Source of the DNA: Candidatus Aalborgicola bjergmarkensis
Lineage (GTDB): Bacteria; Pseudomonadota; Gammaproteobacteria; Burkholderiales; Burkholderiaceae_C
Length of the DNA: 64,000 nucleotides
NCBI GenBank assembly: GCA_016708725.1
Contig: JADJFE010000002.1
Span: forward strand, 150,505-214,504
Direction of reading: 5' to 3'
The translations under genes and the position numbers were made by a program. Under the pieces are notes generated by a model that was not told where the DNA came from, did no database searches, and worked only from the letters and a program-made list of their open reading frames with translations. This document shows positions 81 to 2,559 of the stretch, piece after piece (position 1 is the first letter of the stretch; each line of letters starts with the position of its first letter).

Positions 81-1217
81 ATGAGGAAGAACTTTTCAAA
101 CGCGGAAGCGCCGCCATCAAATCAGGAAGAGGTGGAAGGCCTAGATAATTCGCAATCCGAAGGATGGGGCGGGGATTACCCGCTAGATGCTGTTTTCGTT
201 CGCACCGAAACTCGCACCGTTCAAGAGGTTGTTAAACGCATAAAAGCAGGCCGTTATCAACTCGATCCAGATTTTCAGCGTGATTTTGTTTGGCCTGTGG
301 ATAAACAATCCCGCCTAATCGAATCCTGCGTTATGCGGGTCCCACTGCCGGTATTTTATGTTGCTGAAGCCAAGGATGGCCGCATTGCTGTAGTTGATGG
401 CTTGCAGCGCTTAACGACATTTAATCGCTTTCTTGCCGATGAATTCAGCTTGATTCTTAGAGCCGACGAAGATCAACCCGCCCACCCGCTCGACGGCAAA
501 AAATACGGCGAACTTCCACTGCTTTTGCAAGAGCGGATCGAAGATACGCAACTGACACTCTATATTCTCGATGCAAAAGCTCCAGAGAGAGCAAAACTCG
601 ACATCTTCGAGCGAGTAAACAGCGGAGTGTCCTTAACCCGACAACAGATGCGTAACTGCCTATTCAACGGACCAGCAACGCAGTGGCTTAAGAAAGCCAG
701 CAAGAATCCTGAATTCCTCTCGGCAAGCGGGAGATCCCTTGACAGTAAATCGATGCGTGATCGCGAAGCCATCAATCGGTTTTGTGCCTTTTATTTGATT
801 GGTGAAGAAAAATACTCTGGAGGCGATATGGACGCCTTCCTTGCTCGGGCATTGGAGAAGATGCAGAAAGAAAGCACCGACCTGGATCAGCTTTATTCCA
901 CCTTTACATATTCAATGAAGGTGAACCGGTATCTATTTGGTAATCATGCATTTCGTAAATCATTAGAACATTGTGAAGCGCTCGCCTCACGAACTGTACT
1001 CAACATTGCCCTATTCGACGTTTGCTCGGTACTGCTTGCCGATATCGATAAGGATATCATAAATAACAATACGCAAGCATTGCGCGAAATGTTTTCATCT
1101 TTAATTAAAGATGCGGTTTTCAATCATGCCATTACCTACTCAACCAATAGTACGCGCCAAGTAAAAAAACGTTTTGAAATGGCTCGGGTAGCGATCTCGA
1201 AGGCTCTATATGTTTAA
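81..1217 (+). CDS. DUF262 (ParB-like/GmrSD N-terminal) domain protein, Menshen NsnA-like
   Basis: Motifs P.FQRDFVW, SRLIES, P.FY, VVDGLQRLTT and IFERVNSG are typical of DUF262; the ORF overlaps the start of a downstream AAA ATPase. Confidence 0.8.
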   Translation: MRKNFSNAEAPPSNQEEVEGLDNSQSEGWGGDYPLDAVFVRTETRTVQEVVKRIKAGRYQLDPDFQRDFVWPVDKQSRLIESCVMRVPLPVFYVAEAKDGRIAVVDGLQRLTTFNRFLADEFSLILRADEDQPAHPLDGKKYGELPLLLQERIEDTQLTLYILDAKAPERAKLDIFERVNSGVSLTRQQMRNCLFNGPATQWLKKASKNPEFLSASGRSLDSKSMRDREAINRFCAFYLIGEEKYSGGDMDAFLARALEKMQKESTDLDQLYSTFTYSMKVNRYLFGNHAFRKSLEHCEALASRTVLNIALFDVCSVLLADIDKDIINNNTQALREMFSSLIKDAVFNHAITYSTNSTRQVKKRFEMARVAISKALYV

Positions 1218-1495
1218 TTGTCTTCATATCCAGGACTTCAAATGTTTCGAAACCCTATCGCTGCCGCTGGCGCCCATGACATTGTTGACCGGCTTCAATG
1301 CCGCAGGGAAATCTACGACTCTACAGGCCATGCTGCTTCTGGCGCAAGCTCAGCGCCAAGGAGGGCACTTGCCGCTCCTTCCACTGAATGGATCATTGAT
1401 ACGTCTTGGATCACCCGGTGATGTTTTGCGCAAAGGTGGCGGACCTACATTGGTCCTGGGGATTGAAACTGCCGAGGTCCGAGTCGACTGGTCTG
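1210..1495 (+). pseudogene. 5' fragment of AAA_15/AAA_21-type ATPase (NsnB-like), truncated
   Basis: LHIQDFKCFE...LLTGFNAAGKST Walker A; the ORF ends after 114 aa with no Walker B; similarity appears to stop near 1490. Confidence 0.75.
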
Positions 1496-2195
1496 GGAGG
1501 ATGCTCGTGAATCCAATGAGGAAGACTATTTTGAGCAAGATGGGCAGGACGTAACCGATCTCGGACTTGGTGAAGCGGCGCGGCGCTGGCTTGCCGGTCA
1601 ATATGCATCTAGCTTCAGTTTTATCCGGGGTGGATTCGATTACACACCGATTGAGATTTTGCAAGGCTTGCCTGAAGCTCCTATCAATACAGTATCGGTG
1701 TGCAACCTCTGGACTACGGATGCTTTGCGCCAAAGTGCCCAAAGTGCTGTTCCGGCACCTGTGAACTGGTTGCAGATGCTAAAACACGCTAAAAACCGCT
1801 TTGATAAGTTGACTATATATTCCAGTTCAATAATCTCCCTTCGCAGCGAACCATTTGGTCAGTACGTTGTAGAGCGGATATTCGTTCTACTAGGCGTGCT
1901 TCAAGAATTCATGGAATGCCTTCATACGGATGGAAGCTATTCAGGCAGAAATAATGAATTGATAGCAACACACTTTTCGGGCGCAAAGGCGTGGTTCACC
2001 GATGAATCGGATACAAACAAAAGAGATTATTTCGAAAAATTGAGTTTCCCCGACCCGGAACATGACGGAAATATTTTCTGTCCGTGGCATGGGAAAATAA
2101 AGACCCCCCAATACAGAATTCATTTTGAATGGCCAATAGAAAGCAGAAAGTCGTTACGAGTATTTTACATTGGCCCCAAGATAACGAAAAATTGA
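1494..2195 (+). pseudogene. 3' part of a third gene of the DUF262-ATPase locus (NsnC-like, possible RelE-like C-terminus), lacking its start
   Basis: The frame of ORF 1659-2195 is open back to about 1494 (WEDARESNEEDYFEQDGQDVTDLGLGEAARRW) and ends CPWHGKIKTPQYRIHFEWP...YIGPKITKN; there is no native start. Confidence 0.6.
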
Positions 2196-2206
2196 GCGGT
2201 CTTGAT

Positions 2207-2539
2207 CCATGCGCGGCAAACCTCGCCCTTCAGGGCGGGGTCAAGAGCGCGGACAGCGAAGCTGGCCTTGTTTTCTGGTTGTGTCATAATTTCCCTGTCG
2301 CAAGACCTATGGCGGGATACGCCAAAAGTAATGCTTGTGGAGCGAATGTGAGACCTGGGGGAGCATGGCGTCGGCTCATAGCCGTAAAGCTCCCCACTGT
2401 GGGAGCTAACGGCGAAAACCAAGCCATGCACCCCTGGGCAGTCGTGGTGAAGCAAGAACCCACCGAAGTGACTAAATGTGAGGTAACTCATGTTTTGCAC
2501 CGTAGGAATCCCCTTCCTTTAGGGAGGGGAGGATGTCAA
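2207..2539 (+). mobile_element. Non-autonomous IS200/IS605-family mini element (tnpA absent, tnpB 3' end only)
   Basis: TTGAT at 2202-2206 precedes the left end; left hairpin CCTCGCCC-TTCA-GGGCGGGG (2221-2240); right hairpin CCCCTTCC-TTTA-GGGAGGGG (2510-2529) followed by AGGATGTCAA; internal frame ...VKQEPTEVT... resembles a TnpB C-terminal tail; no target duplication. Confidence 0.8.
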
Positions 2540-2559
2540 GAACTAATAAACGCCGAAAT
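2380..2559 (+). ncRNA. Putative TnpB omegaRNA/reRNA scaffold with flanking guide (5' boundary uncertain)
   Basis: Established: omegaRNA overlaps the tnpB 3' end and right end, with the guide read from the flank. Here the flank after TCAA is GAACTAATAAACGCCGAAAT. Expression is not shown. Confidence 0.4.

What the first reader, a model, noticed from the sequence alone, without database searches (positions are those of the whole stretch)
2202..2559. 333-bp IS200/IS605 mini-element that keeps only both ends and the tnpB tail (possible stand-alone omegaRNA)
Seen: TTGAT immediately left of the element, two terminal hairpins, a right end GAGGATGTCAA, no target duplication, and a TnpB-tail-like frame. 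Established: ISDra2-type elements insert 3' of TTGAT, end in TCAA, and TnpB uses an RNA from the right end plus flank as guide. Inference: excision would create TTGAT|GAACTAATAAACGCCGAAAT, the TAM plus target of this copy's own guide, so the element could be a guide-RNA module served in trans by TnpA/TnpB encoded elsewhere.
Basis: partly seen in the sequence, partly recalled or inferred. Interest (0 to 1): 0.65.

Follow-up and report, generated by a model that had tools for sequence, protein, structure and literature searches.

The report
Gene-less mini-transposon carrying a guide RNA
This 333-bp stretch is a stripped-down copy of an ISDra2-type (IS200/IS605) transposon that has lost its nuclease gene but keeps both ends and the complete guide-RNA (omegaRNA) scaffold; such elements have been described before, so it is a clean but ordinary example.

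Summary
TTGAT lies at 2202-2206, the 333-bp element at 2207-2539, it has two subterminal hairpins, it ends in ...GAGGATGTCAA, and there is no target duplication.

- **Copies.** The genome (a Comamonadaceae bacterium) holds three copies of the mini-element. It also holds seven complete ~1.38-kb tnpB-only elements with the same ends, plus one cut by a contig end. One tnpB is intact (411 aa, ISDra2-like).
- **omegaRNA scaffold.** I built a covariance model from 58 tnpB 3' ends, none of them minis. Its structure forms standard pairs in 93.9% of cells, and 23 of 32 pairs show compensatory changes. It matches window 2310-2539 at 97.6 bits (E 2.5e-28). The match starts at the first structured hairpin and carries an 87-nt expansion in a variable hairpin.
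- **Compensatory change.** The minis carry a C-G to U-A change in a pair that is invariant in all 58 relatives.
- **Boundaries.** A paralogous empty site for a sister element confirms insertion 3' of the 5-nt motif with no duplication.
- **What is missing.** No cognate tnpA is in the assembly. The only intact tnpB belongs to a TTTAT-targeting subtype.
- **Novelty.** Palindrome-associated transposable elements (PATEs) that carry omegaRNAs served in trans are already described (Meers 2023; Gomes-Filho 2015). This is a new member of a known kind.

The parts
2202..2206 (+). TTGAT: the transposon-adjacent motif (TAM), i.e. the TnpA target and left cleavage site. It belongs to the flank, not to the element.
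   Evidence: Four of five subtype-A copies in the genome are preceded by TTGAT and one by CTGAT. The same motif precedes this LE type in relatives.
2207..2539 (+). The 333-bp non-autonomous mini-element (PATE-like), made of LE + omegaRNA scaffold + RE, with no gene.
   Evidence: Three copies in the genome at 92-100% identity. The ORF running through it has no Pfam match.
2207..2272 (+). Left end shared with the full-length tnpB elements. It holds the target-specifying nucleotides GCGCGGCAAAC (2211-2221) and the subterminal hairpin 2221-2240. A second hairpin at 2251-2267 has one mismatch in this copy.
   Evidence: 92% identity to the LEs of full-length copies over element positions 1-65. The second hairpin covaries between subtypes: GGACAGC/GCTGTCC versus GGACACC/GGTGTCC.
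2282..2290 (+). TGTCATAAT: an extended -10-like motif, conserved in all three minis, about 20 nt upstream of the omegaRNA scaffold. This is a possible own promoter and is inferred only.
   Evidence: Sequence. The promoter scan did not call it because no -35 is present. There are no expression data.
2310..2539 (+). The complete omegaRNA (reRNA) scaffold.
   Evidence: Model R1, built without the minis: 97.6 bits, E 2.5e-28, model positions 45-190 of 190, only two non-canonical pairs marked in the alignment. Weak Rfam hits to HgcC and sot0042 fall in the same region.
2310..2324 (+). Hairpin 1, UGGCG-GGAUA-CGCCA. The relatives have CGCGG-GGAYA-CCGCG.
   Evidence: Helix 1 covaries in the family.
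2334..2338 (+). 5' strand (CUUGU) of the long-range helix. It pairs with GCAAG at 2452-2456.
   Evidence: The pair at columns 81/146 is C-G in 58 of 58 relatives. All three minis have U-A there, a compensatory double change.
2354..2438 (+). Expanded, highly structured arm of variable hairpin 2. It is 87 nt where most relatives have 7. The segment is found only in the three minis.
   Evidence: No match in the full-length copies, in 200 genomes of the family, or by exact-word scans of the genome and metagenome collections.
2447..2468 (+). Conserved core GUGAAGCAAGAACCCACCGAAG, which includes the 3' strand GCAAG (2452-2456) of the long-range helix.
   Evidence: Nearly invariant block in 58 relatives.
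2471..2498 (+). Hairpin 3, the covarying stem that spans the former tnpB stop codon.
   Evidence: Helix 7: 7 of 8 pairs show changes on both sides in the family.
2510..2529 (+). RE subterminal hairpin. It serves as the TnpA recognition hairpin in ssDNA and as the last stem of the omegaRNA.
   Evidence: helix 8. There is a U-A to G-C compensatory change between the window copy and the C30 mini.
2536..2539 (+). TCAA: the right cleavage site and the last bases of the element.
   Evidence: Every copy ends in GGATGTCAA and the flanks diverge immediately after it.
2540..2559 (+). Flank that would form the guide of this copy's omegaRNA (GAACTAATAAACGCCGAAAT).
   Evidence: Assigned by position, by analogy with ISDra2 (established knowledge). 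There is no other TAM-flanked match in the genome with up to 3 mismatches in 16 nt.

Best explanation
The element is a PATE-like, non-autonomous derivative of an ISDra2-type IS200/IS605 element of the tnpB-only ('IS1341') kind. An internal deletion removed tnpB up to the 5' edge of the omegaRNA scaffold.

**What is left.**
- The left end: the TnpA-binding hairpin plus the nucleotides that specify the TTGAT target.
- A short A/T-rich, -10-like stretch.
- The whole omegaRNA scaffold, which includes the right-end hairpin and the TCAA cleavage site.

**Shown here.** The anatomy and the boundaries. The three copies at different sites. The conserved and covarying RNA structure. The presence of cognate tnpB elements.

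**Inferred from the established ISDra2/GstTnpB model.**
1. In the past, a Y1 TnpA supplied in trans peeled the element out as ssDNA and pasted it 3' of TTGAT.
2. Transcription, either from the internal -10-like motif or by read-through from the co-oriented upstream ORF that ends 11 nt before the TTGAT motif, gives an RNA whose 3' end is the flank GAACTAATAAACGCCG.
3. A TnpB made by a full-length element binds or processes this RNA.
4. If the element were excised, TnpB would cut the restored joint TTGAT|GAACTAAT.., so that recombination with a sister chromosome puts the element back.

**Present state.** In this genome no cognate tnpA is detectable and most tnpB copies are frameshifted. The system is therefore most likely dormant for transposition, with the guide module latent.
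For: - **Copies and ends.**: three mini copies, seven complete full-length copies and one cut by a contig end, all sharing LE (positions 1-65) and RE (last 93 nt) at about 90% identity, with flanks that diverge exactly at TTGAT| and |after TCAA.
- **Cognate tnpB.**: full-length copies encode TnpB. One is intact at 411 aa, with D181/E265/D361 and both CxxC pairs. Its Pfam domains are HTH_OrfB_IS605, OrfB_IS605 and the TNB domain. It matches ISDra2 TnpB structures 8h1j and 8exa at E 9e-52.
- **RNA structure in the family.**: in 58 relatives 93.9% of cells form standard pairs, against about 40% when partners are slid. 23 of 32 pairs change on both sides, and 0 of 500 shuffles reach the observed values.
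- **The minis fit that structure.**: the model, built without minis, scores them at 93-98 bits. The match begins at the first structured hairpin.
- **Compensatory change.**: a U-A pair in the minis replaces a C-G pair that is invariant in 58 of 58 relatives.
- **Insertion mode.**: the empty-site paralog ...CCTTTAT|ACTGACC... shows that a sister element inserted 3' of the motif without duplication.
- **Target specification.**: the motif covaries with an LE nucleotide by Watson-Crick rules (TTGAT with C, TTTAT with A, TTCAT with G). This copy has C after TTGAT.
- **Literature.** PATEs encoding omegaRNAs (PMC10055086). A transcribed PATE-derived RNA and the HgcC tetraloop (PMC4615843). TnpB processing of its own transcript into omegaRNA (PMC10278001, title and abstract).
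Against: - No cognate Y1 tnpA in the assembly. The only Pfam Y1_Tnp hits are two unrelated single-copy genes without these hairpins nearby. tblastn with the TnpA that accompanies this tnpB clade in relatives finds nothing.
- Six of the seven complete full-length tnpB copies are frameshifted or deleted in the assembly.
- The intact tnpB is in a TTTAT-type element, so its compatibility with a TTGAT target is unknown.
- The 5' half of the mini's scaffold differs in sequence from that of the resident elements, and hairpin 2 is 80 nt longer. Whether the resident TnpB binds it is untested.
- One mini has a truncated LE.
- No empty-site allele of this locus was found.
- Substitutions among the three minis are too few to show selection (p = 0.75).
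Confidence: 0.8

Rival explanations
1. Inert fossil. The identity is the same (a deletion derivative of a tnpB element), but the element has no activity today. It is not transcribed or not bound by TnpB, and it is simply decaying along with the rest of the family.
For: - No cognate tnpA.
- Most tnpB copies are broken.
- One mini has lost the first ~16 nt of its LE.
- The second LE hairpin of the window copy has a mismatch.
- The copies differ by 5-8%, so they are not recent.
- The element lies among gene fragments: a broken AAA_15 ATPase and a truncated RND pump.
- The family is absent from the two congeneric genomes.
Against: - All 32 modelled pairs but two are intact in the window copy.
- There are compensatory changes in the long-range helix and in the RE hairpin.
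- All four variable sites within the 87-nt expansion fall in unpaired positions.
- One tnpB is intact, with a complete catalytic triad.
- Three of the tnpB frameshifts are single-base changes in one A-run and could be assembly errors.
Confidence: 0.35
2. Domesticated guide or small RNA. The mini has been co-opted as a stand-alone regulatory RNA, either as a guide directing TnpB or a TldR-like protein to a host promoter, or as a base-pairing sRNA. On this view it is not part of transposon maintenance.
For: - It has a possible promoter of its own (extended -10-like motif at 2282-2290).
- It has a mini-specific, strongly structured 87-nt expansion.
- Overexpressing a PATE-derived RNA changed growth in Halobacterium (PMC4615843).
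Against: - The 16-nt guide has no TAM-flanked match elsewhere in the genome with up to 3 mismatches.
- The three copies have unrelated guides.
- The element is not conserved in related genomes, whereas TldR-type guides are conserved with their targets.
- The intact TnpB keeps its catalytic residues.
Confidence: 0.05
3. Protein-coding gene. The 153-aa ORF at 2129-2590 that runs through the whole element encodes a small protein.
For: The frame is open across the element and is the same frame as the TnpB tail.
Against: - No Pfam match.
- The ORF starts in the flank, so the other copies cannot share it.
- The C30 copy keeps the old TAG stop.
- The frame is open mainly because the old tnpB stop was mutated in this copy.
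- Conservation follows RNA pairs, not codons.
Confidence: 0.01

Closest known systems
PATEs (palindrome-associated transposable elements): gene-less derivatives of IS200/IS605, described in haloarchaea and noted in Geobacillus stearothermophilus and Clostridioides difficile (PMC4615843; PMC10055086; bioRxiv 10.1101/2023.11.20.567912)
   Same: - LE and RE with subterminal hairpins and no ORF.
- Multiple copies.
- Ends shared with co-resident full-length elements.
- Carries the RE-overlapping RNA.
- Needs TnpA and TnpB in trans.
   Different: - Larger than a bare LE-RE fusion: it keeps the entire ~230-nt omegaRNA scaffold, starting exactly at its first hairpin.
- Hairpin 2 carries an 87-nt lineage-specific expansion.
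- The LEs of the three copies are mosaics of the two resident subtypes.
- No cognate TnpA in the genome.
ISDra2 of Deinococcus radiodurans (IS200/IS605; TnpA + TnpB; reRNA/omegaRNA)
   Same: - TTGAT target/TAM.
- TCAA at the right end.
- No target duplication.
- The guide is taken from the flank after the RE.
- The resident TnpB matches ISDra2 TnpB structures at E 9e-52.
   Different: The window element has neither tnpA nor tnpB. It is a betaproteobacterial lineage with its own scaffold sequence. Sister subtypes use TTTAT.
Rfam HgcC (RF00062) and sot0042 (RF02656), archaeal RNAs from the 3' ends of IS1341-type tnpB genes
   Same: The terminal 8-bp stem with a UUYA tetraloop followed by GAGGAKGUCA. 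The position at the transposon right end.
   Different: Scores are well below the gathering thresholds: 28.4 versus 50 bits, and 17-18 versus 88 bits. The upstream scaffold is not alignable. These are archaeal families.
[quoted passage not shown] 2023
   Same: The predicted logic is the same: excision recreates TAM + target for the element's own guide. Many non-autonomous copies share ends.
   Different: Here the guide-bearing element lacks the nuclease gene. The model has not been tested experimentally for such a mini-element in this lineage.

Membership tests
IS200/IS605 non-autonomous derivative (PATE) | Subterminal imperfect-palindrome hairpins at both ends, similar to each other, with no terminal inverted repeats | tested here: met
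   LE hairpin CCTCGCCC-TTCA-GGGCGGGG (2221-2240). RE hairpin CCCCTTCC-TTTA-GGGAGGGG (2510-2529)..
IS200/IS605 non-autonomous derivative (PATE) | Insertion 3' of a specific 4-5-nt motif without target-site duplication | tested here: met
   TTGAT precedes this copy and 3 of the 4 other subtype-A copies; the fourth has CTGAT. A sister element's empty-site paralog shows exact insertion after TTTAT with no duplication. No empty site was found for this locus itself.
IS200/IS605 non-autonomous derivative (PATE) | Ends shared with full-length, gene-bearing elements of the same genome or lineage | tested here: met
   Element positions 1-65 and 241-333 match seven complete tnpB elements at 88-92% identity.
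IS200/IS605 non-autonomous derivative (PATE) | No transposase or nuclease gene inside | tested here: met
   Only 333 bp. The through-reading ORF has no Pfam hit.
IS200/IS605 non-autonomous derivative (PATE) | Several copies at unrelated sites (evidence of past mobilisation) | tested here: met
   Three copies, on contigs C2, C30 and C6, with unrelated flanks.
IS200/IS605 non-autonomous derivative (PATE) | A Y1 (HUH) TnpA able to mobilise it is available in trans | tested here: not met
   No cognate tnpA in the 98%-complete assembly. Relatives carry one next to tnpB. This concerns present mobility, not the element's origin.
TnpB omegaRNA (reRNA) | Conserved secondary structure of the tnpB 3' end plus RE, as in the cognate TnpB clade | tested here: met
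   Model R1, built without minis: 97.6 bits, E 2.5e-28. Family covariation is shown. The minis carry a compensatory U-A in an invariant C-G pair.
TnpB omegaRNA (reRNA) | A cognate, catalytically intact TnpB encoded in the same genome | tested here: met
   G000:C1:275395-276778(-), 411 aa, D181/E265/D361. It lies in a TTTAT-type element.
TnpB omegaRNA (reRNA) | Transcribed, with a ~16-nt guide from the flank after the RE | not testable with these tools
TnpB omegaRNA (reRNA) | Bound by TnpB, and directs cleavage of TAM + target | not testable with these tools
   This needs RIP-seq and an interference or cleavage assay.
Rfam HgcC (RF00062) | Score at or above the family's gathering threshold | tested here: not met
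   28.4 bits against 50. The resemblance is confined to the RE hairpin and tail.

The most novel reading that the evidence does not exclude
The mini is a self-contained 'guide-only' parasite of the resident TnpB elements. It would have its own promoter (TGTCATAAT at 2282-2290) driving a full omegaRNA with a lineage-specific 87-nt expansion arm. RNA-level selection would be maintaining it, as the compensatory U-A in an otherwise invariant pair suggests. It would borrow TnpB in trans to protect itself from loss, and might compete with the full-length elements' own guides for the nuclease.
Probability: 0.2. Interest if true: 0.5.

Novelty: new member of a known kind. Interest (0 to 1): 0.3.

Why it matters
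It is a tidy natural example of how modular the OMEGA system is: transposon ends, guide RNA and nuclease can be uncoupled, and the guide module survives on its own.

The genome offers a compact test set:
- three guide-only minis;
- two TnpB subtypes with different motifs (TTGAT and TTTAT);
- an IscB family (TTCAT) that shares the same end hairpin;
- no transposase.

This set could be used to ask two questions. Can a TnpB load a heterologous, expanded omegaRNA in trans? Does a single LE nucleotide reprogram the target motif? The second is suggested by the Watson-Crick covariation seen here. None of this changes current understanding, because the concept is already in the literature.

Tried and rejected
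- **Empty-site allele of this locus.** The joined flanks found nothing spanning the joint in 100 genomes of the family. Only the RND-pump fragment matched.
- **Parent of the mini-specific middle segment.**
  - No DNA match in 200 family genomes.
  - No exact-word match in genome contigs.
  - No exact-word match in metagenome contigs.
- **More minis in relatives.** Model hits of ~100 nt in other genomes turned out to be 3' ends of a different tnpB clade, and one 140-nt hit was cut by a contig end. Recurrence elsewhere is not shown.
- **Off-target or regulatory targets of the guide.** None with a TAM.
- **Selection test on the three minis.** 6 variable paired sites against 5 unpaired, Fisher p = 0.75. 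This is uninformative.
- **Sigma-70 scan.** No full promoter and no intrinsic terminator inside or next to the element. The extended -10-like motif is my own reading.
- **Earlier notes of this scan.** Nothing relevant.
- **Rejected readings.**
  - REP/RAYT element: the two Y1 genes lack these hairpins nearby.
  - Protein-coding ORF.

Full report
**1. The observation**

The sequence at 2202-2559 reads TTGAT | CCATGCGCGGCAAACCTCGCCCTTCAGGGCGGGG... ...GGAATCCCCTTCCTTTAGGGAGGGGAGGATGTCAA | GAACTAATAAACGCCGAAAT. The element proper is 2207-2539, 333 bp. It has an 8-bp hairpin close to each end, at 2221-2240 and 2510-2529. It has no terminal inverted repeats and no duplicated flank.

**2. Copies in the genome**

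The window is contig C2:150505-214504 of a 6.09-Mb, 40-contig assembly (98% complete). A BLAST of the 333 bp against that genome gives three kinds of match.

- Three mini-elements:
  - the window copy;
  - C30:199433-199749, 95% identical, with the first ~16 nt of its LE missing;
  - C6:94785-95118, 92% identical.
- Seven complete elements of ~1.28-1.39 kb, plus an eighth copy cut by the end of contig C39. They share only element positions 1-65 and 241-333 with the mini, at 88-92% identity.
- Various solo ends.

Printing the ends with their flanks shows that similarity always stops right after ...GGATGTCAA. On the left it begins right after TTGAT/CTGAT in subtype A (LE CCATGCGCGGCAAACC...). 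In subtype B (LE CAGTCTTGCGCGGAAAACC...) it begins right after TTTAT. The window copy has a subtype-A LE. The C6 mini has a subtype-B-like LE. The second LE hairpin is swapped between them, so the minis' left ends are mosaics of the two resident subtypes.

**3. The long elements are tnpB-only ISDra2-type elements**

Each long element carries one long frame. Only C1:275395-276778(-) is intact, at 411 aa.

- Pfam finds HTH_OrfB_IS605, OrfB_IS605 and the Cas12f1-like TNB domain.
- The PDB sequence search finds ISDra2 TnpB (8h1j, 8bf8/8exa) at E 9e-52 over residues 3-384.
- The RuvC acidic residues D181, E265 and D361 and both CxxC pairs are present.

The other copies are frameshifted or deleted. 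Three carry the same one-base loss in an A-run and one has an extra G in a G-run. These may be real mutations or assembly errors.

The TnpB tail ...KQEPTEVTRREVTHV* corresponds to the mini's ...KQEPTEVTKCEVTHV. The 'TnpB-tail-like frame' is therefore genuine.

**4. The mini keeps the whole omegaRNA scaffold**

The middle of the mini (element positions 66-240) has no BLAST match in the long elements. A plain alignment is poor.

Folding shows the same architecture in both:
- a short hairpin with a GGAUA loop;
- a long-range helix enclosing a variable hairpin;
- a conserved single-stranded core;
- a third hairpin;
- the RE hairpin.

To test this independently I took these steps.
1. I collected 80 loci encoding relatives of the TnpB (60-84% identity; Rhodoferax, Polaromonas, Janthinobacterium, Massilia, Burkholderia and others).
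2. I cut out the 190 nt ending at TCAA.
3. I aligned 56 non-redundant ones with two resident full-length copies and no minis (A1).

RNAalifold gives 32 pairs, 23 of them with compensatory changes. On this structure:
- 93.9% of cells form standard pairs, against 37-44% when partners are slid by 1-3 columns;
- the covariation score is 0.40, against 0.05-0.08;
- no shuffle out of 500 reaches the observed values.

The covariance model R1 built from A1 finds exactly one hit in the 64-kb window. It covers 2310-2539 on the + strand at 97.6 bits, E 2.5e-28. It spans model positions 45-190, with only two non-canonical pairs, and has an 87-nt insertion where the model has a 7-nt loop in hairpin 2.

In the whole genome R1 finds the seven full-length copies (170-178 bits), the three minis (93-98 bits) and one distant tnpB element (40 bits).

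Model positions 1-44 are unstructured coding sequence. So the deletion that made the mini stops at the 5' edge of the structured RNA.

One detail is telling. The long-range helix CCUGU/GCAGG has a C-G pair (columns 81/146) that is invariant in 58 of 58 relatives. All three minis have CUUGU/GCAAG there, a U-A pair produced by a change on both strands. The RE hairpin likewise differs between the window copy and the C30 copy by a U-A to G-C swap. The structure has been maintained in the mini's lineage. With only three copies, a formal test is uninformative.

**5. Boundaries and mode of insertion**

No empty allele of the window's own site could be found. While checking guides, however, I found that the intact subtype-B element has a paralogous uninterrupted site on contig C28. 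It reads ...CCGTTCCTTTAT|ACTGACCGCGTTTTTT..., collinear with both flanks of the element over ~300 bp. That proves insertion immediately 3' of the pentanucleotide, with no target duplication and precise ends. This is the IS200/IS605 signature.

Across the genome and the relatives, the pentanucleotide covaries with one LE position just 5' of the hairpin:
- TTGAT with GCGCGG**C**AAAC;
- TTTAT with GCGCGG**A**AAAC;
- TTCAT with GCGCGT**G**AAAC (an IscB family in the same genome);
- and, at a second position, TTGAC and TTTAC with ..AA**G**C.

This is what the DNA-guide mechanism established for IS608/ISDra2 TnpA predicts. The window copy obeys it (C, TTGAT).

**6. What is missing**

Pfam Y1_Tnp finds only two genes in the genome. 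One is a 150-aa IS200-like protein on C32 and the other a 235-aa RAYT-like protein on C14. Neither has these hairpins nearby.

In at least 30 of the 80 related loci a ~140-aa Y1 tnpA lies divergently next to tnpB. tblastn of that protein against this genome gives nothing better than E 0.3.

So about 25 IS200/IS605-type elements sit in this assembly without a detectable cognate transposase: TnpB type, IscB type and minis. The omegaRNA family is patchy in the bacterial family (22 of 301 genomes) and absent from the two congeners.

The host is a Comamonadaceae bacterium (HemB 85-88% identical to Polaromonas, Rhodoferax and Comamonadaceae MAGs).

**7. How it most likely works**

Shown: the anatomy, the copy number, the conserved RNA structure and the presence of a cognate intact TnpB.

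Inferred from the ISDra2/ISGst model (PMC10055086; my knowledge of Karvelis 2021 and Altae-Tran 2021):
- the + strand is transcribed;
- TnpB made elsewhere binds the scaffold, and may trim its 5' end as shown for its own mRNA (PMC10278001);
- the ~16 nt after TCAA (GAACTAATAAACGCCG) act as the guide;
- after a TnpA-mediated excision the joint TTGAT|GAACTAAT... is TAM + target and would be cut, which favours re-copying of the element from a sister chromosome.

The source of transcription is uncertain. A TGTCATAAT extended -10-like motif, conserved in the three minis, lies about 20 nt upstream of the scaffold (2282-2290). In addition, the co-oriented ORF 1659-2195 ends 11 nt before the TTGAT motif, with no terminator predicted between them.

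Without TnpA there is no excision, so the guide has nothing to cut. It has no other TAM-flanked match in the genome. At present the element is probably dormant.

**8. Comparison with what is known**

- Gene-less IS200/IS605 derivatives (PATEs) are known.
- Gomes-Filho et al. 2015 showed a transcribed PATE-derived RNA in Halobacterium and linked the RE tetraloop to Rfam HgcC. That explains the sub-threshold HgcC and sot0042 hits here.
- Meers et al. [quoted passage not shown]

What is particular here:
- the deletion edge coincides with the start of the structured RNA;
- there is an 87-nt expansion arm found nowhere else;
- the left ends are mosaic;
- the genome lacks a transposase.

**9. Verdict**

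The finding is real and correctly interpreted, and it is a new member of a known kind. Interest is modest (0.3). The more novel reading, a self-promoted guide-only parasite under RNA-level selection, is not excluded but has no direct support.

Noticed in passing
G000:C1:34081-35765 and at least 10 further copies (e.g. C1:124987-126671, C3:155861-157541, C32:83366-85048); not in the window: A second OMEGA family in the same genome. These are ~1685-bp IS200/IS605 elements encoding a ~480-aa IscB-like protein (HNH motif), inserted 3' of TTCAT. Their LE hairpin is identical to that of the TnpB elements. Short derivatives that keep both ends also exist (C1:87771-88200; a similar one at C14:86770).
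   Followed up: partly
Own genome and loci L036-L113: The 5-nt insertion motif covaries, by Watson-Crick rules, with nucleotides just 5' of the LE hairpin. TTGAT goes with C, TTTAT with A and TTCAT with G; at a second position, final T goes with A and final C with G. This suggests single-nucleotide reprogramming of the TnpA target. It also implies that closely related TnpBs must cope with different TAMs.
   Followed up: partly
G000:C28, minus strand, around 2990: An uninterrupted paralog of the insertion site of the only intact TnpB element (TTTAT|ACTGACCGCGTTTTTT). It matches that element's own 16-nt guide with one mismatch, at position 10. It is therefore a potential self-target that coexists with an intact nuclease.
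   Followed up: partly
G000: C30:423405-424789, C1:172910-174292, C1:361151-362533 (tnpB codons ~62-66): Three tnpB copies carry the same one-base deletion in the run GAAGAAAGAAAAAG, and C10:74801-76187 has an extra G in a G-run nearby. This is either a slippage hot spot or homopolymer assembly error. It decides how many TnpBs are really intact.
   Followed up: no
Whole genome G000: About 25 IS200/IS605-type elements (TnpB, IscB and minis) are present, but no cognate Y1 tnpA. The only Y1_Tnp genes are single-copy and of other types: C32:262901-263239 and C14:30560-30883 (RAYT-like).
   Followed up: yes
window 81-2195 and 2582-2953: Upstream lies a GmrSD_N (DUF262) gene (81-1217), followed by an AAA_15 ATPase start (1210-1554) that breaks off. 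ORF 1659-2195, which has no Pfam match, comes next and may be the rest of that gene. Downstream, on the minus strand, is a 123-aa fragment of an RND (ACR_tran) pump. The mini sits in a patch of decaying genes, possibly a degraded defence island.
   Followed up: partly
G000:C30:423281-423332, C2:534098-534127, C3:283035-283075: Solo or truncated left ends of the TnpB-element family. One lies only ~70 bp upstream of a complete subtype-A element (about 140 bp between the two LE hairpins), which suggests nested or repeated insertion there.
   Followed up: no
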